Below are positions 2,924 through 51,871 of a stretch of DNA of 61,046 bases, in pieces. The first letter of the stretch is position 1. The number at the start of each line of letters is the position of its first letter. A program made the translations under genes and the position numbers. The DNA is from an uncultured Candidatus Saccharibacteria bacterium (GTDB lineage: Bacteria; Patescibacteriota; Minisyncoccia; UBA6257; GWB1-50-10), in the NCBI GenBank assembly GCA_964495575.1, contig CAZBVS010000001.1, positions 1-61,046 on the forward strand, given 5' to 3'. The notes under the pieces are model-generated. The model was given only the letters and a program-made list of their open reading frames with translations, ran no database searches and had not been told where the DNA came from.

Positions 2924-4664
2924 TTTTTCGAAGTTCTAATAACTGCTCTGGGTCGGTTGTTATAATCTTATCCTCTGTGTAAGACGGAATTATCTTTATT
3001 GCCACGTGCTTTAATCCTACAAAGAACAATCCTTCTCCCACCTCCGCCTCCATCAAAAACTGTCTCTCGCTCCTCGTAAGATCAAATGTGTCCGCCAACA
3101 CTTTAATACTTGAAGGAGATTGTTTCATAAGAAGCTGCAGAGCGGAGTTAGTAACAATAGGTTTTCCATACTTTGAATCCATAAAATCTTCAACGTTTTG
3201 AGTTATAGTTGTGAGTCCTAAGTAATATTTCCTGGCTCTTTTAGCTAATCTAAACAAGAATGAGGCGCTATCTTCATATTCCATCATCCACCAAGCTTCA
3301 TCTATAATCAATAATCTTCTTTTTAGATTTGCTCTAATAAGACTCCATACAAAATTCAAAACTATATACATTGCAATAGGCCTCAACTCTTCTTCCAAGT
3401 CTCTTATTGAAAACACAATAAACCTATTTGTCATATCTACATCTGTAGGAGAGTTTGTAAAGCCTGAATAAGAACCACTTACATATTTTTCAAGTCTTTG
3501 AGCAAGTTTACTCCCTCCCTCAGTGTTATCTAATACTGTTTGAAAATCTTCTAATATAGGTGGATCAATATCTTTTTTACCGAAGTTTTCTGCGGTAATA
3601 TCCCGAGCAGCGTAAGTTTCAATAAGAGCTCTATCAATTAATGATTCTTCTTCAGGTTCAATATCACCTAACATTAACTTAATTAATCCAGTTAAATTTA
3701 GAATATGTGATTTAAATACATTAGCCGGATCTTCATCTTCTGGAATTACTGGTATATCAAAAGGATTTATATTATGAGGTGAGGTTAGTGATATTTTAAA
3801 GAAACTACCCCCTACAGCATCAGCTAGCGATTGATATTCTTCCTCCGGGTCTATTACCATTACATCCGTGCCCATCATCAATGTTCTTAATATCTCTAGC
3901 TTAGTAGCGTATGATTTTCCAGCTCCAGACTTAGCAAACACAACCGAGTTAGCATTTTCTAAATCAAAACGATCAAATATTACCAAACCGTTATTATGTA
4001 AATTAACTCCGTACATAATCCCTTCGTCTGAGGTTAGATCAGGTGAAACAAAAGGGAATAAAGAAGATGTTGGACCCGTATTTAAAGGCGTGTGAATCTT
4101 TAATTTATCTTCCCCTAACGGAAGAGTTGTTTTGAACCCTTCCACCTGCCTAAACAAGGCAGGTTTTATATATACCAACTTTGATTCAAGGGTTGAGGTA
4201 ATATCATTTTCAAGAGTGTTCAACTTCTCAATATCAGAGCCATAGATTGTTACATATACTCCAACTTTAAACATTTTTTCTGTTCCTTGCTGAAGAGTAT
4301 TTCTTAGGTTTTCAATATCACGATAAGCTGTTTCTAACTTTGGATTACTTACCAATCCCTTCTCCTCTTCTTCAGATATCTGAGCTTGAATTTCACCCAC
4401 CTTCTTTCTTAATTTTTTCAACGTAGTGGCCGTATCCATAGGATGAATGAATATTGATATATCCATCATCTCAGCCATATTAATAATTGGTGAAAACCAT
4501 CCTGTTGATAGATATCGGGGGTAAGTATAAACAAAGAATGTTTTTACATAATAATTATCAAGCTTTAAATAATTAGAGTTCTCTTTCATTCCAGCAGGAG
4601 CCACAATGTTAGCAATGTTTTCTTCTGATGGATTATATGATTTTGGAATTTTTATTTTAGACAT
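2916..4664 (-). CDS. virB4: VirB4/TrbE-family type IV secretion ATPase
   Basis: Walker A AKSGAGKSYATK, Walker B LLIIDEAWWMM, and the N-terminal motif YLKLDNYYVKTFFVYTYPRYLSTGWFSP typical of Gram-positive-type VirB4 proteins. Confidence 0.85.
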   Translation of the reverse strand: MSKIKIPKSYNPSEENIANIVAPAGMKENSNYLKLDNYYVKTFFVYTYPRYLSTGWFSPIINMAEMMDISIFIHPMDTATTLKKLRKKVGEIQAQISEEEEKGLVSNPKLETAYRDIENLRNTLQQGTEKMFKVGVYVTIYGSDIEKLNTLENDITSTLESKLVYIKPALFRQVEGFKTTLPLGEDKLKIHTPLNTGPTSSLFPFVSPDLTSDEGIMYGVNLHNNGLVIFDRFDLENANSVVFAKSGAGKSYATKLEILRTLMMGTDVMVIDPEEEYQSLADAVGGSFFKISLTSPHNINPFDIPVIPEDEDPANVFKSHILNLTGLIKLMLGDIEPEEESLIDRALIETYAARDITAENFGKKDIDPPILEDFQTVLDNTEGGSKLAQRLEKYVSGSYSGFTNSPTDVDMTNRFIVFSIRDLEEELRPIAMYIVLNFVWSLIRANLKRRLLIIDEAWWMMEYEDSASFLFRLAKRARKYYLGLTTITQNVEDFMDSKYGKPIVTNSALQLLMKQSPSSIKVLADTFDLTRSERQFLMEAEVGEGLFFVGLKHVAIKIIPSYTEDKIITTDPEQLLELRKNE

Positions 4665-4665
4665 A

Positions 4666-5307
4666 TTATTTTCTTTCTTTTTCTATAAACTGAGGATTAT
4701 ATAAATTGTATAATAACTCTGTTAATTCCTCGTCTTTTAATATTTTAACCCTTAACCCCACCTGTTCTAAACCTGACCGAACCTCATCTACTCTGTAATC
4801 TAATTGTTGTATTTTTTTTGCCTCAGACTCTTCTTTGTCTGTTTCTTCTTTAGTGTTTTTCCCAGTTAGAGAATTTATTATTCCTCCTAACCCCTTCTTT
4901 GTTTTTTCTACTACCTTAATAGGTTTATAAGGTACCACCACAAAGAAATTTTTAGTTATAATAGGGTTTTCTTCTACAAAAGATTCTATAAACTTGGCGT
5001 ATTCTTCTATCTGAACTTTTAATAACTCTTTTTTCTCTATATCTATTCTTTCTCTTATCTTTTCTAAATAAGAGTTTATATTTATTTTTCTAGAGTGAAT
5101 AAATATCTGGACCGGGAAATCCAAACCATTCAAAAAATTTTGAAAAGATCCTAATATTATTTCCTGCTCTTCTTCAGATTTTAAACTAAAGTTTATGCCA
5201 TTTACTATAAGTGCTTTTCTTAAAGCACCATTTTTCATGTAAATAACTCCGTTTTCCACCCTATCTACATCTACAAATTTTTGTGTTGCTTTTGTTTTTT
5301 CCGCCAT
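4666..5307 (-). CDS. T4SS-associated protein resembling the extreme N-terminal domain of Gram-positive VirB4-type ATPases (possible split VirB4)
   Basis: FVDVDRVENGVIYMKNGALRKALIVNGINFSLKSEEEQEIILGSFQNFLNGLDFPVQIFIHSRKI resembles, from memory, the N-terminus of Tn916-Orf16/TcpF-type ATPases. Its stop lies 1 nt before the virB4 start. Confidence 0.45.
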   Translation of the reverse strand: MAEKTKATQKFVDVDRVENGVIYMKNGALRKALIVNGINFSLKSEEEQEIILGSFQNFLNGLDFPVQIFIHSRKININSYLEKIRERIDIEKKELLKVQIEEYAKFIESFVEENPIITKNFFVVVPYKPIKVVEKTKKGLGGIINSLTGKNTKEETDKEESEAKKIQQLDYRVDEVRSGLEQVGLRVKILKDEELTELLYNLYNPQFIEKERK

Positions 5308-14000: not shown

Positions 14001-16445
14001 TTAAACAACAAAATTAATAAGTTTATTTTCTACAAAAACCACCCTTTTTATATCTTTGCCTCCAACATATTTTGATACTTTTCTTAAGTTTAAGGCTAAC
14101 TCTTTAGCCTTTTCTTTTTTAATTCCCTTTTCTGCCTCTAGTGTACCTCTTACTTTTCCATTAACCTGAACAACAAGATTAAACTTTTCTTCTTTTGCAA
14201 TATCAGAATCAAATTCAGGCCAACTGCTTTTATGAATTGAAGAGCTATTACCCAGCCTATTCCACAGTTCTTCTGTTACATGAGGAGCAAACGGAGCCAG
14301 CATTTTTATAAATATCTCTGATGTTTCCCGTGAAACATCAGTGTCTTCTATCTTGTTTAATAACTTCATCAAAGCACTGATTGCAGTATTATACTTCAAA
14401 CTTTCTATATCCTCTGTTACTTTCTTGATTGTTTGGTGAAGAATCTTTTTAGTTTCTTCACTATCCTTTCCATCTTTATGGTCATCAAACTTTTTCCATA
14501 CTCTGTCCAAAAACCTTGTAATTCCTTTTACTCCAGAATCTCTAAAGTCTCCTCCGTCCTCAAAAGGAGCTAAGAACATTAAATATGTTCTTAAAACATC
14601 AGCTCCATAGTTATTGATATAATCATCGGGGTTTACAACATTTCCCTTAGACTTACTCATCTTCGATCCTTCTTTTATTAATAATCCATGAGCCCTGAAC
14701 TTTGTGAAAGGTTCATCAAAATCAATATACCCCCAATCATTAAATGTCTTCGTCACAAAACGAGTGTATAAAAGGTGTAATACTGCGTGCTCTGCCCCCC
14801 CAATATACATATCCACCGGGAGCCATTTTTTAATCCTCTCTTTATCTAAAGCCTCCTCTTTATTATCCAAACCAATGTATCTGAAATAATACCAAGCTGA
14901 ATCTAAAAAGTTATCCGACACATCAGTTTCTCTTCTTGCTTCCTTCCCACACTTTGGACAGGCTGTTTTGTAAAAATCCTCATGTTGTTCTAAAGGAGCT
15001 TTTGAGGTTCCTGTAGGTTTAAAATCTTCTATGTAAGGAAGTTTCACCGGAAGCTCTTCTTCAGGTACCGCAAACCATCCTGGGTTTGCTTTTTCTCCTT
15101 TTGTTAGCTTGCCCTCAAACTCACCCTCCTCAATTTTTTTCTTACAAGACTCACAGAACACAAGAGGAATAGGTGGCCCCCAGTATCTTTGTCGTGAAAT
15201 GAGCCAGTCTCTTAATCTATAGTTTGTTTCCATTCTTCCCGCAACTTTTTTAGTAATCTTCTTTCTTGCTTCCTCCGATGGAACACCATTCATCTCCCCG
15301 GAGTTTATTAAAACTCCTTCTCCTTCGTATAATTCTTCTCCTTCCTCTTCTTTAGGTTTAATAACCTCAACCACAGGAATATCATGTTCTTTAGCAAACT
15401 CATAGTCACGTTCATCATGAGCAGGCACAGCCATAATAGCCCCTGTCCCGTATGATGAAAGAACATAGTCTGCTATATATATTGGTATTTCTTTATCGTT
15501 AACCGGATTAACAGCTTTTACTCCTTTAATTAAAACCCCCGTCTTTCCTTTCTCTTCTGCCACCCGTTCCTGCTCTGTTTTTCTTTTTGCTTCTTCTACA
15601 TACCTCTCAATATCTGAAACGTTTTCCGCCTTGTTCTTTAACTTTTTCACCAAATCATGTTCAGGAGCTAAGACCATATATGTTGCCCCATACAAAGTGT
15701 CAGGCCGGGTTGTAAACACCTCTATCTTTTCATCAAAATCTTTAATATTAAACTCAATACTTGCCCCATAGCTTCTTCCTATCCAGTTTTCTTGAGCGAT
15801 CTTTACTTTCTCTGACCAATCAATGTCTTCCAAGCTGTCTAATAATTCATCGGCATAATCTGTTATTTTGAAAAACCATTGAGAAAGTTTTTTTCTCTCA
15901 ATTTTTGAGTCACACCTCTCACATTCTCCTGAGATAACTTGTTCATCGGCCAACACGGTCTTACAGCTTGGACACCAGTTTACAGGTGACTCCTTCTTAT
16001 ATGCCAAGCCATGATCAAACATCTCTTTGAAAACCCACTGGGTCCACCTGTAATATTCTGGATCAAACGTTTCTAATCTTTCGTCCCAGGAAAATCCGTT
16101 TCCAATCATCTTTAACTGTTCGTAGAAATGTTTTTCTGATTTCTCTATCTGATCTTTCGGGTGGGTTCCAACCTTCATTGCATAATTTTCTGAATGAATT
16201 CCAAACCCATCAAGACCGATAGGTTCAAAGACATCCTTTCCTCTCATTCTTTGATATCTTCCATATATATCAGAACCCGTAAAAGCATACATATTCCCCA
16301 CATGAAGTCCTTCTGCAGAAGGGTAAGGGAACATCATTAAGTTATAGAATGGTTCATCAGAATTATCTAAATCTGGTTCATATATTCCATCTTTATACCA
16401 TCTCTCCTGCCATTTATTTTCAATTTCTTTAAAGTTGTATTCCAT
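14001..16445 (-). CDS. leuS: leucine--tRNA ligase
   Basis: HVGN (HIGH) and KMSKSKGN motifs, CP1 editing-domain length, characteristic N-terminus IENKWQERW. Confidence 0.95.
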   Translation of the reverse strand: MEYNFKEIENKWQERWYKDGIYEPDLDNSDEPFYNLMMFPYPSAEGLHVGNMYAFTGSDIYGRYQRMRGKDVFEPIGLDGFGIHSENYAMKVGTHPKDQIEKSEKHFYEQLKMIGNGFSWDERLETFDPEYYRWTQWVFKEMFDHGLAYKKESPVNWCPSCKTVLADEQVISGECERCDSKIERKKLSQWFFKITDYADELLDSLEDIDWSEKVKIAQENWIGRSYGASIEFNIKDFDEKIEVFTTRPDTLYGATYMVLAPEHDLVKKLKNKAENVSDIERYVEEAKRKTEQERVAEEKGKTGVLIKGVKAVNPVNDKEIPIYIADYVLSSYGTGAIMAVPAHDERDYEFAKEHDIPVVEVIKPKEEEGEELYEGEGVLINSGEMNGVPSEEARKKITKKVAGRMETNYRLRDWLISRQRYWGPPIPLVFCESCKKKIEEGEFEGKLTKGEKANPGWFAVPEEELPVKLPYIEDFKPTGTSKAPLEQHEDFYKTACPKCGKEARRETDVSDNFLDSAWYYFRYIGLDNKEEALDKERIKKWLPVDMYIGGAEHAVLHLLYTRFVTKTFNDWGYIDFDEPFTKFRAHGLLIKEGSKMSKSKGNVVNPDDYINNYGADVLRTYLMFLAPFEDGGDFRDSGVKGITRFLDRVWKKFDDHKDGKDSEETKKILHQTIKKVTEDIESLKYNTAISALMKLLNKIEDTDVSRETSEIFIKMLAPFAPHVTEELWNRLGNSSSIHKSSWPEFDSDIAKEEKFNLVVQVNGKVRGTLEAEKGIKKEKAKELALNLRKVSKYVGGKDIKRVVFVENKLINFVV

Positions 16446-18465: not shown

Positions 18466-19737
18466 TTATATCTTCAGTATATCAAGAAAACTCTTATTTT
18501 TGAAAGGGCCTATTACAGCTAAGTTAAGTTTTGAGTTATGAAACAAGTCTTTTGCTACAGATTGAATATCTTCTGAGCTTACCGCTTGAATTTTAGCAGC
18601 TAACTCATCAGGGGAAGTTAAGCCAAGATTTTTAACTCTTTGATTGATATAAAAACCAGCTAATCTATTAGAAGTTTCTAGCCCTAGATACATATTTCCT
18701 ATTATATTTCTTTTTGCCTTACCCAACTCTTTTTCATCAACAGCCTTTTCTTTCATTTTTTTAAACTCATTTAAAACTGCTTTTATCACACTCTCTGTCT
18801 TGTCGGTGCTTACCCCCGCTTTTGCTTGTATCACTCCACAGTTAGTATCAAGGCTGGTGTTTGAGTGTATATAGTACGCTGCCCCCATCTCGTCCCTTAT
18901 CTTTTTAAAAAGTCGAGAACTCATATTTCCTCCTAGTATGTTTGATAATACCCAGAGAGCAAATTTTCTTTCATCATGAGTATCAAAAGCTCTAAAGCCT
19001 AATATCAAATGAGCCTGATCAGAGTCTTTATATCTTACAAACTCTGCCGGTTTCTCTTGATCTTCTGTTACCTCAGGTAACTCAGGTGTGTCACCTTCCT
19101 TCTCTTTTCCAAATATCTTTTCAATCTTCTTTTTTAAATTTTTTTCACTATAACCGCCAGCTATTGCTAAAATTGTATTACTTGGTTTGTAATGTTTATT
19201 TCTGTACTGAACAAAATTATCTCTTTCTATATTTTTTATCACCTCCTTTCTTCCTGCTATTGACCAACCGGCAGGTTGATCTCCGTATAATACTTTAAGG
19301 AAATCATCCGATACTTTTCTCATTGGCATGTCTTCATACATGTTAATTTCCTCAATGATTACCCCTCTTTCCTTTTCCATTTCATCAGCTGGTAATGTAG
19401 AGTTTAGATAAAGATCAGACACAACTTCTAAAACCTTATCAAAATGTTTATTCTGAACCTTGGCATAATAAGCCGTTCTTTCTTGTCCGGTAAATGCATT
19501 ATACGAGGCCCCTAATCCATCTAGCTCTGTAGCGATTGCACTTGGCCCCGGTCTATTTTCCGTTCCTTTAAATGTCATATGTTCTAGAAAATGAGAAAGC
19601 CCCGATATTTCCTTGGTTTCATATTTTGAACCAACTTTAACTGCCACCATGACAGTGGTGGCAGGACTTTCCTTGCGAGGAACAAAAATTACTTCCATTC
19701 CGTTTTCTAGCTTGTATGATGTAAAATCTTTAGCCAT
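18466..19737 (-). CDS. M16-family (pitrilysin/insulinase-like) zinc peptidase
   Basis: Inverted zinc motif HFLEHMTFKGT near the N-terminus; two-domain length. Confidence 0.8.
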   Translation of the reverse strand: MAKDFTSYKLENGMEVIFVPRKESPATTVMVAVKVGSKYETKEISGLSHFLEHMTFKGTENRPGPSAIATELDGLGASYNAFTGQERTAYYAKVQNKHFDKVLEVVSDLYLNSTLPADEMEKERGVIIEEINMYEDMPMRKVSDDFLKVLYGDQPAGWSIAGRKEVIKNIERDNFVQYRNKHYKPSNTILAIAGGYSEKNLKKKIEKIFGKEKEGDTPELPEVTEDQEKPAEFVRYKDSDQAHLILGFRAFDTHDERKFALWVLSNILGGNMSSRLFKKIRDEMGAAYYIHSNTSLDTNCGVIQAKAGVSTDKTESVIKAVLNEFKKMKEKAVDEKELGKAKRNIIGNMYLGLETSNRLAGFYINQRVKNLGLTSPDELAAKIQAVSSEDIQSVAKDLFHNSKLNLAVIGPFKNKSFLDILKI

Positions 19738-23430: not shown

Positions 23431-23832
23431 CTAGTATATCAACAACCTTAAAATACCATCTACACTAAAAGACCCTCCGCCCATAGTTATAAGAATGAAC
23501 ATTCCTGCCAAAAGAAGAAGTTCAAACTCGACTCCTCCTACGAAGTCTTCATCTTTCTTAACTGTTGCTAACAAGGCCATTATCTCGACAAAAAATAGAA
23601 CAGCCACTAACTGAGTCAAAAGACCAAACAAGATAAACAATCCTCCTACAAACTCCAGAAAAGCTGTTACAACATTCCAAAAGTTTTTAGACTCAAGATC
23701 AACTTCGTTCAAATCATTGTTATTTTTGATGTTTTTAACCTTAGGCCATCCATGGCTAATCATTATTAATCCAAGAACAACCCTCAGGGCTATAAGCGCC
23801 CAATCACTGAACACTAACAGAAATTGAATCAT
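23431..23832 (-). CDS. DoxX-family membrane protein
   Basis: ALRVVLGLIMISHGWPKV and four hydrophobic helices. Confidence 0.7.
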   Translation of the reverse strand: MIQFLLVFSDWALIALRVVLGLIMISHGWPKVKNIKNNNDLNEVDLESKNFWNVVTAFLEFVGGLFILFGLLTQLVAVLFFVEIMALLATVKKDEDFVGGVEFELLLLAGMFILITMGGGSFSVDGILRLLIY

Positions 23833-30617: not shown

Positions 30618-30753
30618 TGGTGGAGCTGGCAGGACTTTAACCTGCACCCCTTGCCTGAAAAAGCAAGTATTCTTTCAATCAGGGTTCCTTTACGTTATAC
30701 AAACTTCTACGTTTGTATAACCGGGAACGGCTGACGACTTGAACTACAGCTCC
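30618..30753 (-). ncRNA. 136-nt tRNA-like RNA with encoded CCA, non-canonical (not assignable to any tRNA or to tmRNA)
   Basis: The minus strand reads GGAGCUG...GCAGG-UUAAAGU-CCUGC-CAGCUCC-A-CCA. It has a 7-bp acceptor closure, a T-arm-like hairpin and a terminal ACCA. Two internal arms are present: GUUCC/GGAAC capped by a perfect 10-bp hairpin UUAUACAAAC/GUUUGUAUAA, and CUUGC/GCAAG. No standard D arm or 7-nt anticodon loop can be drawn. Confidence 0.45.
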
Positions 30754-49546: not shown

Positions 49547-50521
49547 ATGAGTAAACCCATTTTAATATCAGGAATTCAGCCTACTGGGCGTCTTCATGTT
49601 GGAAATTATCTTGGAGCAATTAAAAATTTTAAAAAACTTCAAGATTCAGGTGATTACCAACCTTATTTTTTCGTGGCTGACCTCCATTCATTAACTACTG
49701 AATTCGATCCTAACGAAAAACGAGACCAGGTTAGAGAGATAATAAGAACTTACCTTAAAGCTGGTCTTGATCCAAAAGAATCAACTATTTTCGTTCAGTC
49801 TGAGATTCCTCCTAACGTTGAGCTAAGCTGGATTCTTTCCACAGTTACTCCTTACGGAATGCTTTCCCGAATGACTCAGTTTAAGAAGAAAAGTAAAAAT
49901 CAAAAAAACAATATTAACGCCGGCCTATTCTTCTATCCTGTATTAATGGCAGCGGATATTGTTTTATATGATGCTCAGTACGTTCCTGTAGGAGAAGATC
50001 AGATTCAACACCTCGAATTTACCAGAGAGATAGTGAGAAAATTTAATAACCGGTACGGTGATATCTTTAAAGAACCTGAAGAGCTACTGACTCATACTTC
50101 AAGGTTAATGAGCCTTACTGATCCAGAAAACAAAATGTCCAAATCTTCCCCTAAAGGATGTCTATTCCTTGATGATTCGCCTAAAGAGATAAAGAAAAAG
50201 ATTATGTCTGCCGTAACTGATTCCGGCAAAGAGATAAAGTATGACGAAAAGAATAAAAAGGCAGTTTCCAACTTGATGAATATTTACCACGCTTTTTCTG
50301 GTAAAAAGATAAAAGAAATTGAAAAAGAGTTTGAAGGAAAAGGATACGGTGATTTTAAAAAGACTTTAGCAGAACTAGTTACTAAAAAGCTGGAACCGTT
50401 CCGTGAAGAAAAATACTCGGATAAAGAAATTGAAAAAATAATTAAACAAGGGAATAAAAAAGCTTTAAAAAGAGCAGATAAGAAGATTAAAAAAGTCAAA
50501 AAAGCTCTAGGTTTGTTGTAA
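49547..50521 (+). CDS. trpS: tryptophan--tRNA ligase
   Basis: SGIQPTGRLHVGNYLGA (HIGH-type motif) and KMSKS. Confidence 0.95.
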   Translation: MSKPILISGIQPTGRLHVGNYLGAIKNFKKLQDSGDYQPYFFVADLHSLTTEFDPNEKRDQVREIIRTYLKAGLDPKESTIFVQSEIPPNVELSWILSTVTPYGMLSRMTQFKKKSKNQKNNINAGLFFYPVLMAADIVLYDAQYVPVGEDQIQHLEFTREIVRKFNNRYGDIFKEPEELLTHTSRLMSLTDPENKMSKSSPKGCLFLDDSPKEIKKKIMSAVTDSGKEIKYDEKNKKAVSNLMNIYHAFSGKKIKEIEKEFEGKGYGDFKKTLAELVTKKLEPFREEKYSDKEIEKIIKQGNKKALKRADKKIKKVKKALGLL

Positions 50522-50542
50522 ATAAAAATAAATAAAAATATT

Positions 50543-50563
50543 CCCCAGCAAATAATGCTGGGG
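50543..50563. terminator. hairpin terminator shared by trpS (+) and the convergent small RNA (-)
   Basis: ccccagca-aataa-tgctgggg. The T-run is better on the minus strand (aatattttt). Confidence 0.6.
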
Positions 50564-50580
50564 GGTCTTAATTTTTAAAA

Positions 50581-50679
50581 GAAGCCTTACGTGGCAGCAC
50601 AGGGATTCGAACCCTGCAACGACCTTGTTATTCTCGGCCGCACCTGCTGACAGCGCCAGCTTAACTGCCTTGCTTCGCT
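50581..50679 (-). ncRNA. tRNA-like small RNA with canonical T-arm, own strong promoter and terminator; not a standard tRNA
   Basis: Minus strand: GAAGCAAGGCAG...CUGCCACGUAAGGCUUC closing helix, hairpin GCUG-GCGCUGU-CAGC, arm GCGGCC-11nt-GGUCGU, and T-arm CAGGG-UUCGAAU-CCCUG (50600-50616). No anticodon arm can be drawn. Confidence 0.5.
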
Positions 50680-50685
50680 ATATTG

Positions 50686-50713
50686 ATTATATCACTTTTT
50701 TATCTCAAGTCAA
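50686..50713 (-). promoter_or_regulatory. strong promoter (TTGACT-16-TATAAT) driving the tRNA-like RNA
   Basis: Hexamers read on the minus strand; the -10 box ends about 7 nt before the RNA core. Confidence 0.6.
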
Positions 50714-50785
50714 CAGTGTGACAGATAAGCAAGTATCAAAAAAACCGGCCCTCAAAGGCCGGTTTTTTATATAGAAGCTTGCTTT

Positions 50786-51871
50786 TTATTCTACAAACTT
50801 CAAGTTTATCCTTTTGTCTTCTTTATTCACCTCTTTAATCTCAAAGGTGTAAGTCTCTTCTTTGTCAATCTTTTCTTTCATCTCTTCCTCTCCGCCAAAC
50901 TCTGTTACGTGAACCTGTCCTTGAATCTCGTCATCAAGCTTTATTACAGCCCCAAAAGGATTTAAGCTATACACCTCTCCTTCAACCCCGTCTCCTTCTT
51001 TGTATCTTTCTTCAACCTCGTCCCAAGGATCTTTTTCAAGAGCCTTTAGGGATAGTGATATCTTTCCGTCTTTTATCTCAATAATCTTTGCTTTTATTTC
51101 ATCATCCATACTTACTACCTCTTTAGGGTTGTCAATAATTCTGTGAGCAAGCTCTGAGATATGAATTAATCCTTCTACATCAGGATTATCGGTAAACTGG
51201 ATAAACACTCCGAAATCAGCTATTCCGGTTACTATTCCCCCTACTATCTGGCCTTCTTCATAATCTTTTACTAGTTCTTTAGAGCTTAGCTTGTTGGCTG
51301 CTTTTTCAGAAACAATTAGTTTGTTAGATTTTTGGTTTGCGTCAATTATCTTTACCTCAAGTTTTTCTCCAACAAGTTTTTCAAGCTCTTTTTCAATTTT
51401 CTTAGGGTCGTTGTCTTCAATATCGGGATAATTTTCAGAAGTTAACTGAGAAGCTGGTAAGAAAGCTTGCACATTTTCTATCTTAGTTAACAAACCTCCT
51501 TTGTTAGCGCTGTAAGGTTTTGTTTCGATGACTTCTTCTTTTTCGTATAGCTCATTTATCTTCAACCAGTTTTTCTGCCTTTCTGCCTCTGAAAGGGATA
51601 GCTCAACCAACCCTTCATCGTTATTTGCTTTTACAACCTTTGCTTGAATAGCATCACCCACCTCTGATTCTTTGACGACGTTCTTTGCTCCAAGTAATTC
51701 TCCACGGTAAATGATACCGGTGCCAAATTTTCCTAAATCAACCATTACCTCTCTTGAGCTCTTTTCAATGATCTTTCCTTCTACTAAATCACCCGGCTTC
51801 AAGAATGCAAAAACATCGGGGTTGTCTTTAATAAACTTTATAAATGGATTTGTATTTGGTTTTGTTGTCAT
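50786..51871 (-). CDS. rpsA: 30S ribosomal protein S1 (four S1 domains)
   Basis: Repeated S1 OB-fold signatures (GDLVEGKIIEK, GDAIQAKVVK, GQIVGGIVTGIADFGVFIQF, GDGVEGEVYSLNPFGAVIKL). Confidence 0.85.
   Translation of the reverse strand: MTTKPNTNPFIKFIKDNPDVFAFLKPGDLVEGKIIEKSSREVMVDLGKFGTGIIYRGELLGAKNVVKESEVGDAIQAKVVKANNDEGLVELSLSEAERQKNWLKINELYEKEEVIETKPYSANKGGLLTKIENVQAFLPASQLTSENYPDIEDNDPKKIEKELEKLVGEKLEVKIIDANQKSNKLIVSEKAANKLSSKELVKDYEEGQIVGGIVTGIADFGVFIQFTDNPDVEGLIHISELAHRIIDNPKEVVSMDDEIKAKIIEIKDGKISLSLKALEKDPWDEVEERYKEGDGVEGEVYSLNPFGAVIKLDDEIQGQVHVTEFGGEEEMKEKIDKEETYTFEIKEVNKEDKRINLKFVE

What the first reader, a model, noticed from the sequence alone, without database searches (positions are those of the whole stretch)
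50535..50713. Strongly promoted small RNA with a perfect tRNA T-arm but no anticodon arm
On the minus strand, TTGACT-16-TATAAT precedes an RNA core of about 100 nt. Its ends pair (GAAGC...GGCAG with CUGCC...GCUUC). The core contains a D-arm-like hairpin (GCUG-7nt-CAGC), an arm with an 11-nt loop (GCGGCC-GAGAAUAACAA-GGUCGU) and a canonical T-arm (CAGGG-UUCGAAU-CCCUG). A hairpin terminator follows. As a tRNA it fails: it has no 7-nt anticodon loop, no GG in the D loop, and no CCA or proper 7-bp acceptor. The layout of a long closing helix plus a tRNA-like module resembles bacterial Y-RNA-like tRNA mimics, but no Ro/Rsr gene is in the window. I could not find SRP-RNA or 6S motifs.
Basis: partly seen in the sequence, partly recalled or inferred. 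Interest (0 to 1): 0.6.

Follow-up and report, generated by a model that had tools for sequence, protein, structure and literature searches.

The report
Non-decoding tRNA-shaped small RNA gene
A tiny-genome (Paceibacteria/CPR) bacterium and three close relatives keep, under strong selection, a stand-alone gene for a 73-78-nt RNA that has the shape of a tRNA but cannot read a codon. It matches no catalogued RNA family and its role is unknown.

Summary
On the minus strand, a near-consensus promoter (TTGACT-16-TGnTATAAT) and a hairpin terminator bracket a 78-nt core (50669-50592). The core folds as a four-arm cloverleaf:
- a 6-bp acceptor stem followed by A73;
- a 5-6-bp hairpin with a 3-nt loop and no GG;
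- an arm with a 10-11-nt A-rich loop, GA(G)AAUAAYAA;
- a canonical T arm.

ARAGORN and Rfam do not call it a tRNA or any other family. Four variants exist (own, two Logan contigs, one MAG), always just downstream of the S1-protein gene. Sister lineages have the same S1/trpS junction without it.

Between two genomes whose synonymous sites differ by 53-59%, the core differs at 4 of 78 positions. The neighbouring tRNA-Leu differs at about 8 of 86. A more distant variant adds three double compensatory changes.

All decoding tRNAs are accounted for: the "missing" tRNA-Asn and tRNA-fMet carry group I introns.

The Y-RNA (YrlA) idea fails. The genome has no Ro or RtcB, the closing helix is not conserved, and the termini sit at the acceptor stem.

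Best reading: a tRNA-derived, non-decoding tRNA mimic matured by the tRNA machinery. Its partner is unknown, and expression could not be tested.

The parts
50708..50713 (-). -35 hexamer TTGACT
   Evidence: Identical in G003 and L064 although the spacer between the hexamers diverged.
50686..50694 (-). Extended -10, TGATATAAT
   Evidence: TG present; 11 of 12 matches overall. Conserved in G003 and L064.
50670..50679 (-). 5' leader. The transcription start near 50679 is inferred from the -10 position. The leader contains GAAGC, which can pair with the trailer.
   Evidence: Poorly conserved: about 5-6 of 12 positions differ in G003. Inferred to be removed by RNase P.
50592..50669 (-). 78-nt conserved core, the inferred mature RNA before CCA addition: GGCAGU UAA [hairpin 1] AGGU [hairpin 2] U [T arm] GCUGCC A
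   Evidence: The models R1 and R2 match exactly this span in all four variants. Conservation drops on both sides of it.
50664..50669 (-). Acceptor stem, 5' strand GGCAGU. It pairs with 50593-50598 (GCUGCC). A73 is at 50592.
   Evidence: Five of six pairs are invariant; the sixth changes U.G to U-A.
50646..50660 (-). Hairpin 1 (D-arm position): 6-bp stem with loop GCU
   Evidence: One pair changed on both sides (C-G to U-A) and one pair changed G.U to A-U. The loop sequence is free: GCU, GUU or GAA.
50642..50645 (-). Linker AGGU with an invariant GG
   Evidence: AGGU, GGGU and AGGC in the variants. That the GG contacts the T loop is an inference, not shown.
50619..50641 (-). Hairpin 2 (anticodon-arm position): stem GCGGCC/GGUCGU with the 11-nt loop GAGAAUAACAA (50625-50635)
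   Evidence: The stem is 4-6 bp and the loop 10-11 nt. The loop core AAUAAYAA is conserved in all four variants.
50599..50617 (-). T arm: GCAGGG UUCGAAU CCCUGU
   Evidence: Two pairs changed on both sides and one changed G.U to A-U. The T loop is invariant.
50564..50591 (-). 3' trailer, starting CG and containing GCUUC
   Evidence: About 77% identical to G003. Replaced by a different and much longer trailer in L063.
50533..50563 (-). Intrinsic terminator: hairpin CCCCAGCA-UUAUU-UGCUGGGG plus a U run. It is bidirectional with trpS.

Best explanation
This is a functional, lineage-restricted gene for a tRNA-derived RNA that no longer decodes: a tRNA mimic.

Shown:
- It has its own promoter and terminator.
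- It folds as a four-arm cloverleaf. The acceptor stem and T stem together stack to the tRNA-standard 12 bp. This reads either as 6 + 6 bp, or as 7 + 5 bp with a U.U mismatch.
- It is under purifying selection at least as strong as that on a neighbouring genuine tRNA.

Inferred:
- The transcript enters the normal tRNA maturation route. RNase P would cut at G1 (50669). The 3' end would be trimmed after A73 (50592) and CCA added. The T loop would be modified.
- The mature 78-nt + CCA molecule would then be bound through its acceptor/T 'top half' by one or more tRNA-handling proteins.
- In place of an anticodon it presents a conserved A-rich loop (AAUAAYAA), which would be the specific contact for a still unknown protein or RNA partner.
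- The invariant GG in the linker between the two hairpins may replace the D-loop GG in holding the T loop.

The most likely role is a regulatory or adaptor tRNA mimic (a decoy or ligand for a tRNA-binding factor). It is not a participant in decoding.
For: Gene anatomy: promoter 11 of 12 with TG, plus a terminator. The -35 and -10 hexamers are identical in three variants although the spacer diverged.

Functional constraint:
- The core differs at 4 of 78 positions between this genome and G003.
- The flanking S1 and trpS genes have pS 0.53-0.59 and dS 0.93-1.15.
- Binomial P is about 6e-20.
- The bona fide tRNA-Leu(CAG), 3 kb away, differs at about 8 of 86 positions between the same two genomes.

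Structure:
- The same cloverleaf is the minimum-free-energy fold of three variants folded separately.
- 97.9% of pair cells are standard pairs.
- Three pairs changed on both sides and six changed compatibly on one side.
- Shifted-register controls drop to 29-58% paired.

Not a decoder:
- ARAGORN finds nothing.
- The Rfam tRNA-clan best score is 15.8 bits against cut-offs of 29 and 47.
- The loop is 10 or 11 nt, and any U-NNN-A reading changes meaning between variants: AAC versus AAU.
- All 20 amino acids plus the initiator are served by ordinary tRNAs once the two group-I-intron-bearing genes are counted.

tRNA-pathway entry is plausible:
- The T loop UUCGAAU is invariant and the acceptor/T stack is 12 bp.
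- A73 is followed by C, as in 40 of 40 of this genome's own tRNA genes, none of which encodes CCA.
- RNase P RNA signature motifs are present on contig C2.

The acceptor stem, A73, the GG linker and the A-rich loop stay fixed, while the T stem and both hairpin stems covary. That points to sequence-specific recognition at those sites.
Against: - Expression, the ends of the RNA, CCA addition and modifications are all inferred.
- Only four variants from about three species-level lineages exist. The covariation is real but thin: 7 of 500 shuffles reach 3 double changes, and the alignment was fitted to the model.
- No partner was identified.
- No antisense RNA or enriched target was found for the loop.
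- In L063 no good -35 hexamer is present.
- The gene is dispensable at genus level: sister lineages lack it.
Confidence: 0.55

Rival explanations
1. Anticodon-independent amino-acid carrier. The RNA is charged by a synthetase that reads only the acceptor stem and discriminator (LeuRS-like, given A73). It then donates the amino acid to a non-ribosomal acceptor such as cell wall, lipid or protein N-termini.
For: The acceptor stem sequence and A73 are invariant while the other stems covary. The top half is tRNA-like with a 12-bp stack and a canonical T loop. From general knowledge, non-decoding tRNA isoacceptors used for cell-wall synthesis are known in Gram-positive bacteria.
Against: - There is no G3:U70 (AlaRS).
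- The discriminator is A, not the G73 carried by all of this genome's own tRNA-Ser genes.
- The acceptor GGCAGU differs from that of all own tRNA-Leu genes, which start GC.
- No FemAB-family transferase is found in any of the four congeners.
- Other aa-tRNA-dependent transferases were not tested.
Confidence: 0.17
2. Processing cassette. The tRNA-like fold only recruits RNase P and RNase Z to release or stabilise a neighbouring RNA, either a 3'-trailer-derived small RNA or the S1 mRNA 3' end. The cloverleaf itself would be a by-product.
For: The trailer is about 77% conserved between this genome and G003, above the neutral level. In L063 a roughly 150-nt trailer lies between the cloverleaf and the terminator. 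tRNA-linked small RNAs and 3'ETS sponges are known from general knowledge. Earlier notes of this scan report tRNA-like processing modules in Paceibacterota rRNA spacers; these notes are unverified.
Against: The trailer is not conserved in sequence or length between L063 and the others, whereas the cloverleaf, including its A-rich loop, is. A pure cutting signal would not need a conserved loop in the anticodon-arm position.
Confidence: 0.1
3. A decaying or neutral relic of a duplicated or mobile tRNA gene (pseudogene).
For: The distribution is narrow and the gene is absent from the same S1/trpS junction in sister lineages. An accessory ORF is inserted next to it in L063.
Against: The core differs at 4 of 78 positions against pS 0.53-0.59 in flanking genes. 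Stems show compensatory changes. The promoter hexamers are conserved across a diverged spacer.
Confidence: 0.04
4. A real decoding tRNA with an expanded anticodon loop (a frameshift, quadruplet or recoding tRNA).
For: Cloverleaf shape, canonical T arm and A73.
Against: The loop length differs between variants (10 versus 11 nt). The only U-NNN-A reading gives AAC in one variant and AAU in the others. There is no GG in the D-position loop. tRNA models reject it. No codon lacks a tRNA.
Confidence: 0.03
5. A Y-RNA-like (YrlA-type) module that tethers a Ro60 ring protein.
Against: No TROVE/Ro60 and no RtcB in four genomes, with positive controls matching. No Rfam Y RNA or YrlA match. The closing helix is 4-5 bp and not conserved. 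The termini sit at the acceptor stem, not at a Ro-binding stem (PMC4201824).
Confidence: 0.02

Closest known systems
Canonical bacterial tRNA (Rfam RF00005)
   Same: - Four-arm cloverleaf with the termini in the acceptor stem.
- 12-bp acceptor/T stack.
- T loop UUCGAAU with a G53-C61 pair.
- Single-nucleotide discriminator (A73) followed by C, as in the genome's own tRNA genes.
- Stand-alone promoter and terminator.
   Different: - 10-11-nt A-rich loop instead of a 7-nt anticodon loop.
- The D-position arm is a 5-6-bp stem with a 3-nt loop and no G18G19.
- Junction lengths are 3/4/1 instead of 2/1/4-5.
- The acceptor/T split is 6/6, or 7/5 with a U.U mismatch.
- The best score against the tRNA clan is 15.8 bits.
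Bacterial Y-RNA-like tRNA mimics (YrlA; PMC4201824)
   Same: A non-decoding RNA with a tRNA-like T arm. It is likely to be a substrate of tRNA enzymes.
   Different: YrlA is encoded next to rsr (Ro60). It carries a long Ro-binding stem formed by its own termini, and its 'acceptor' is a closed stem-loop. Here there is no Ro60, no conserved long stem, and the termini are at the acceptor.
tRNA-Sec and the non-canonical 8/5, 9/4, 8/4 and 9/3 tRNAs (allo-tRNAs; PMC5389517, PMC7609411)
   Same: An unusual split of the 12-bp acceptor/T branch, a 6-bp D-position stem with a very small loop, and a 6-bp stem in the anticodon-arm position. The second-best Rfam match is tRNA-Sec.
   Different: - Those RNAs keep a 7-nt anticodon loop and decode.
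- They have long variable arms.
- Here the score is 15.8 bits against a cut-off of 47.
- There is no UCA anticodon.
- The region between hairpin 2 and the T arm is 1 nt.
Non-decoding pseudo-tRNAs such as Bacillus cereus tRNA-Other, and the tRNA-like domain of tmRNA (from general knowledge)
   Same: tRNA-derived molecules kept for roles outside ordinary decoding. The tmRNA tRNA-like domain also lacks a normal D arm and uses a short GG-containing strand against the T loop.
   Different: tRNA-Other keeps a normal anticodon arm. tmRNA has G3:U70, a tag reading frame and pseudoknots, and this genome has a separate tmRNA on contig C3.

Membership tests
Canonical tRNA (RF00005) | 7-nt anticodon loop with U33 and a purine at position 37 | tested here: not met
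   The loop is 11 nt (10 nt in L063). Its length and its would-be anticodon vary between variants.
Canonical tRNA (RF00005) | D loop with G18G19 contacting the T loop | tested here: not met
   The D-position hairpin has a 3-nt loop (GCU, GUU or GAA) with no GG.
Canonical tRNA (RF00005) | T arm with a UUCRANY loop, and a 12-bp acceptor/T stack | tested here: met
   The loop UUCGAAU is invariant. The stack is 6+6 bp (or 7+5 with a U.U mismatch), and the T stem covaries.
Canonical tRNA (RF00005) | Detection by tRNA finders or the covariance model at the curated score | tested here: not met
   ARAGORN finds nothing. Rfam at gathering score finds nothing. The best tRNA-clan score is 15.8 bits.
YrlA / bacterial Y RNA | Encoded in a genome with Ro60 (TROVE), usually adjacent to it | tested here: not met
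   PF05731 is absent from G000-G003. The positive controls Deinococcus and Bacteroides matched.
YrlA / bacterial Y RNA | Long conserved stem formed by the 5' and 3' ends that carries the Ro-binding site | tested here: not met
   The closing helix is 5 bp here, has a mismatch in L064 and is absent in L063.
YrlA / bacterial Y RNA | Match to Rfam Y RNA / YrlA models | tested here: not met
   No such family is listed, even at E <= 10.
tRNA-Sec (RF01852) | UCA anticodon, 8/5 branch, long variable arm, score of at least 47 bits | tested here: not met
   The score is 15.8 bits, and the model's anticodon arm is deleted in the alignment.
tmRNA | G3:U70, a tag reading frame and pseudoknots | tested here: not met
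   The third pair is C3-G70 and there is no tag frame. ARAGORN finds the genome's tmRNA elsewhere, on contig C3.
SRP RNA / 6S RNA | Match to Rfam models | tested here: not met
   No match in the window at gathering score or in the region at E <= 10.
tRNA-processing substrate (RNase P, 3' trimming, CCA addition) | 5' end at G1 and non-templated CCA after A73 in vivo | not testable with these tools
Only indirect support exists: the boundaries of conservation, the A73-C context shared with the genome's own tRNA genes, and RNase P RNA motifs in the genome.

The most novel reading that the evidence does not exclude
The RNA is one member of an undescribed, recurrent class of stand-alone, non-decoding tRNA-shaped RNAs in Paceibacterota. 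Members of the class would keep the acceptor/T 'top half' for the tRNA machinery and replace the anticodon loop with a lineage-specific effector loop. They would then work as dedicated adaptors outside translation. One form would be an anticodon-independently charged amino-acid donor. Another would be a ligand that titrates a tRNA-binding enzyme in organisms with minimal regulatory repertoires. The same 61-kb window holds a second, unrelated tRNA-shaped non-decoder at 30618-30753. Earlier notes of this scan, which are unverified, report further examples in other Paceibacterota.
Probability: 0.2. Interest if true: 0.75.

Novelty: new variant of a known kind. Interest (0 to 1): 0.5.

Why it matters
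tRNA-derived RNAs with jobs outside decoding are few and mostly found by chance. Known examples are tmRNA, YrlA, pseudo-tRNAs and the cell-wall tRNAs.

Here a 565-kb genome, which can afford very little non-essential DNA, keeps such a gene as tightly conserved as a real tRNA. The gene has a distinctive architecture: a 6/6 acceptor/T branch, a 3-nt-loop hairpin in place of the D arm, and a conserved A-rich loop in place of the anticodon loop.

If the partner were found, it would show what a minimal symbiont-type cell uses a tRNA mimic for.

The finding also has a practical side for annotation. tRNA finders miss this RNA. They also miss the two intron-split tRNA genes in the same genome, so the genome looks as if it lacks tRNA-Asn and initiator tRNA when it does not.

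Tried and rejected
1. Replacement for a missing tRNA.
- ARAGORN finds no tRNA-Asn and no initiator tRNA in this genome, while congeners without the RNA have tRNA-Asn.
- Rejected: both genes exist but are split by group I introns (RF00028 at 91.8 and 67.4 bits).

2. Co-occurrence of the RNA with the tRNA-Asn intron.
- Rejected: G003 has the RNA but an intron-less tRNA-Asn. G001 lacks the RNA but has an intron-bearing copy.

3. Derivation from a particular tRNA.
- The best outside matches of model R1 are ordinary tRNAs, often tRNA-Ile(UAU), at no more than 32 bits with no specific similarity.
- The RNA is not similar to tRNA-Asn.

4. A cognate antisense RNA, as earlier notes of this scan reported for other Paceibacterota tRNA mimics.
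- G003 has a 9-nt complement of its loop 52 nt upstream, but the site lies upstream of the promoter and is not conserved in this genome.
- A genome-wide search gives only chance-level hits.

5. Loop target prediction. The complement UURUUAUU occurs 244 times in this AT-rich genome, so it is uninformative.

6. Protein partners. Ro60, RtcB and FemAB are absent.

7. Wider homologues.
- Nothing in 96 family genomes or 401 order genomes with the covariance model.
- Nothing in 401 class genomes with a loop + T-arm pattern.
- The GTDB-species contig scan gave one hit, which is G003.
- The JGI metagenome scan gave one hit, a contig identical to G003.
- Three IMG/VR scans were run. The single viral hit (L058) has the same 11-nt motif in a loop beside a T-arm-like hairpin. 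It shows no fold signal (z = -0.23) and is not called by the tRNA model, so it is probably chance.

8. A small ORF reading of the region. There is no start codon, and with only four substitutions the third-position pattern is not significant.

Full report
**What is there**

Reading the minus strand of 50300-50950 shows, in order:
- the end of a 361-aa S1-domain gene (50786-51871) and its terminator;
- a promoter, TTGACT-16 nt-TATAAT, with a TG just upstream of the -10 hexamer (11 of 12 consensus matches);
- a leader of about 10 nt;
- a 78-nt core, GGCAG...GCUGCCA (50669-50592);
- a 28-nt trailer;
- a hairpin terminator that also serves the convergent trpS gene.

The neighbours are housekeeping genes: the S1 protein, TrpRS, RNase J and GyrA.

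The minimum-free-energy fold (z = -3.46; core alone) is a four-arm cloverleaf:
- an acceptor stem GGCAGU/GCUGCC followed by A73;
- a UAA linker;
- hairpin 1, with 6 bp and a 3-nt loop;
- an AGGU linker;
- hairpin 2, with 6 bp and the 11-nt loop GAGAAUAACAA;
- a single U;
- a T arm, GCAGGG-UUCGAAU-CCCUGU.

ARAGORN finds eight ordinary tRNAs in the window but not this RNA. Rfam at gathering score finds nothing here. At E <= 10 only weak matches appear: mascRNA at 20.9 bits against a cut-off of 42.5, and tRNA-Sec at 15.8 bits against 47. In the tRNA-Sec alignment the model's anticodon arm is deleted.

**Organism and distribution**

The assembly is 565 kb and 95% complete, a CPR/Patescibacteria genome. 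The nearest public record is labelled Candidatus Paceibacterota.

- BLAST and a covariance model (R1) find the RNA in only one of three congeners (G003), in none of the other 92 family genomes, and in none of the other 400 order genomes. The weak hits there are ordinary tRNAs or lie inside coding sequence.
- A loop + T-arm pattern finds nothing in 400 further genomes of the class.
- A scan of all GTDB species contigs returns only G003, and a JGI metagenome scan returns one contig identical to G003.
- Following close homologues of the S1 protein into public assemblies gave two more carriers. L064 has an S1 protein 98% identical, and its RNA differs at one position. L063 has an S1 protein 80% identical and a 73-nt RNA.
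- In every carrier the gene sits directly downstream of the S1 gene.
- In lineages whose S1 protein is about 73% identical (G001, G002, L065-L068), S1 and trpS are separated only by terminators, and the called gaps in L065-L068 are 46-64 nt. No RNA is present there.

So the gene was either gained in, or is retained only by, one sub-clade of a single genus.

**Is it functional?**

Between this genome and G003 the flanking S1 and trpS genes have pS 0.53 and 0.59 (dS 0.93 and 1.15). The 78-nt core differs at only 4 positions, which gives a binomial P of about 6e-20. The genuine tRNA-Leu(CAG) 3 kb away differs at about 8 of 86 positions between the same two genomes, so the odd RNA is at least as constrained as a real tRNA.

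Conservation falls off immediately outside G1 and A73-C-G. The leader differs at about half of its positions, and the promoter spacer diverged while both hexamers stayed identical.

All four substitutions between this genome and G003 fit the fold: G.U to A-U, C-G to U.G, and two loop positions.

The more distant L063 variant adds the following:
- one double change in hairpin 1 (C-G to U-A);
- two double changes in the T stem (C-G to U-A and A-U to G-C);
- G.U to A-U at the outermost T-stem pair;
- U.G to U-A at the sixth acceptor pair.

Overall, 97.9% of pair cells are standard pairs, against 29-58% when the register is shifted. With four sequences, and an alignment fitted to the model, this is supportive rather than conclusive. 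Each variant nevertheless folds into the same cloverleaf on its own.

**What is conserved and what is free**

Invariant across all four variants:
- acceptor pairs 1-5;
- A73 followed by CG;
- the UAA linker;
- GG in the second linker;
- the core AAUAAYAA of the big loop;
- the T loop.

Free to vary:
- the 3-nt loop of hairpin 1 (GCU, GUU, GAA);
- stem lengths (hairpin 1 has 5-6 bp, hairpin 2 has 4-6 bp);
- the size of the big loop (10 or 11 nt);
- the base identities in the T stem.

It has a C.A mismatch in L064 and no counterpart in L063. I therefore treat it as precursor sequence and not as part of the functional RNA.

**It is not a decoder and it replaces no tRNA**

ARAGORN finds 41 tRNAs in the assembly but no tRNA-Asn and no initiator tRNA, while congeners that lack the RNA have tRNA-Asn. 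That looked like a lead. A scan for T arms outside the called tRNAs then showed that both genes are present but interrupted in the anticodon loop. Rfam confirms group I introns at 91.8 and 67.4 bits.

The presence of the intron does not track the RNA. G003 has the RNA and an intron-less tRNA-Asn. G001 lacks the RNA and has an intron-bearing copy.

The big loop cannot hold a fixed anticodon. Its length changes, and the only U-NNN-A reading is AAC here but AAU in G003 and L063.

**Testing the Y-RNA idea**

YrlA-type RNAs have these features (PMC4201824):
- they are encoded next to Ro60;
- they carry a long Ro-binding stem made by their own ends;
- their tRNA-like domain is permuted, so that the 'acceptor' is a closed stem-loop.

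Here TROVE/Ro60 and RtcB are absent from all four genomes of the genus, with positive controls matching. No Y-RNA model scores. The closing helix is not conserved. The ends lie in the acceptor stem.

**How it most likely works**

Shown: the RNA is an independently promoted, terminated, structurally constrained and strongly conserved tRNA-shaped molecule that does not decode.

Inferred: it is matured like a tRNA. The support for that inference is:
- a 12-bp acceptor/T stack, read either as 6+6 bp or as 7+5 bp with a U.U mismatch; the data do not separate these;
- an invariant T loop;
- an A73-C context shared with all 40 of the genome's own tRNA genes, none of which encodes CCA;
- conservation boundaries that fall exactly at G1 and A73;
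- RNase P RNA signature motifs on contig C2.

The sequence-invariant acceptor stem and the conserved A-rich loop are probably the recognised surfaces, because all other stems covary. The invariant GG linker may substitute for the D-loop GG at the T loop.

I therefore favour a tRNA mimic that binds one or more tRNA-handling factors through its top half and presents the A-rich loop to a specific partner.

The main rival is an anticodon-independent amino-acid carrier. Against that rival:
- there is no G3:U70;
- the discriminator is A, not the G73 of the genome's own tRNA-Ser genes;
- the acceptor differs from that of the genome's own tRNA-Leu genes;
- no FemAB transferase is present.

A role as a mere processing cassette, a pseudogene, a recoding tRNA or a Y RNA is less likely, for the reasons given under each rival.

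**Limits**

- Only four variants are known.
- In L063 the promoter lacks a good -35 hexamer. A roughly 150-nt trailer and an unrelated 291-aa ORF lie between the RNA and trpS.
- Searches for an antisense partner or a loop target gave nothing above chance.
- Literature searches found no description of such an RNA in CPR bacteria.

**Verdict**

This is a real, conserved and structured gene for a non-decoding tRNA-shaped RNA. It belongs to no catalogued family, is restricted to a small Paceibacteria clade, and has no known partner. It is a new variant of a known kind (tRNA-derived mimics). It is moderately interesting by itself, and more so if it proves to be part of a wider class in these bacteria.

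Noticed in passing
Own genome outside the window: contig C14 about 4500-4790 (+) and contig C5 about 18480-18760 (-); loci L057 and L056: tRNA-Asn(GUU) and the initiator tRNA-Met are each interrupted in the anticodon loop by a group I intron (RF00028, 91.8 and 67.4 bits). ARAGORN misses both, so the genome falsely appears to lack them. G003 has an intron-less tRNA-Asn. G001 has both an intron-less copy and an intron-bearing copy.
   Followed up: partly
Own genome contig C12 about 14760-15100 (+); locus L055: A TTGACA-17-TATATT promoter and a terminator bracket a region of about 300 nt. It contains two perfect T-arm-like hairpins (GAGGG-UUCAAAU-CCCUU and GGGGG-UUCAAAU-CCCUU) with no matching 5' acceptor strands. 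There is no Rfam match at E <= 0.01. It is possibly another tRNA-derived RNA.
   Followed up: partly
window 30618-30753 (-): A second, unrelated tRNA-shaped RNA of 136 nt ending in CCA, reported by an earlier agent. Rfam tRNA scores part of it at 28.5 bits, just under the cut-off of 29. So two different non-decoding tRNA-like genes lie in one 61-kb window.
   Followed up: partly
window 50741-50768 (-) compared with L002: The S1-gene terminator has identical stems in this genome and in G003 (CCGGCC/GGCCGG). The 6-nt loop is the exact reverse complement (UUUGAG versus CUCAAA), which indicates a hairpin-loop inversion.
   Followed up: no
L063 4552-5427 (+): In the relative whose S1 protein is 80% identical, a 291-aa ORF (P0121, containing an FDHHD motif) is inserted between the RNA gene and trpS. 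It has no Pfam match at E <= 1 and no homologue in 40 related genomes.
   Followed up: partly
All ARAGORN tRNA genes of the own genome: No tRNA gene encodes CCA. In all 40 the discriminator is followed by C, and in about 38 of 40 by CA. This is a conserved N73-C-A 3' context that may be a processing signal.
   Followed up: no
L058 about 1000-1070 (IMG/VR contig IMGVR_UViG_3300030397_000812, near a contig end): A tRNA-like remnant carries the same GAGAAUAACAA motif inside a 13-nt loop closed by a perfect 5-bp stem, next to a T-arm-like hairpin. It has no fold signal and is not called by tRNA models. It is probably chance.
   Followed up: partly
Own genome contig C2 about 23436-23730 (+): The RNase P RNA signature motifs (GAGGAAAGUCCGG and ACAGAAUCCGGCUUA) lie about 280 nt apart. 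This is the likely rnpB gene.
   Followed up: no
L066-L068 (JGI contigs of congeners), recA gene: The recA gene of the lineage whose S1 protein is 73% identical carries an intein with a LAGLIDADG endonuclease (715 aa against 324 aa in L065).
   Followed up: no
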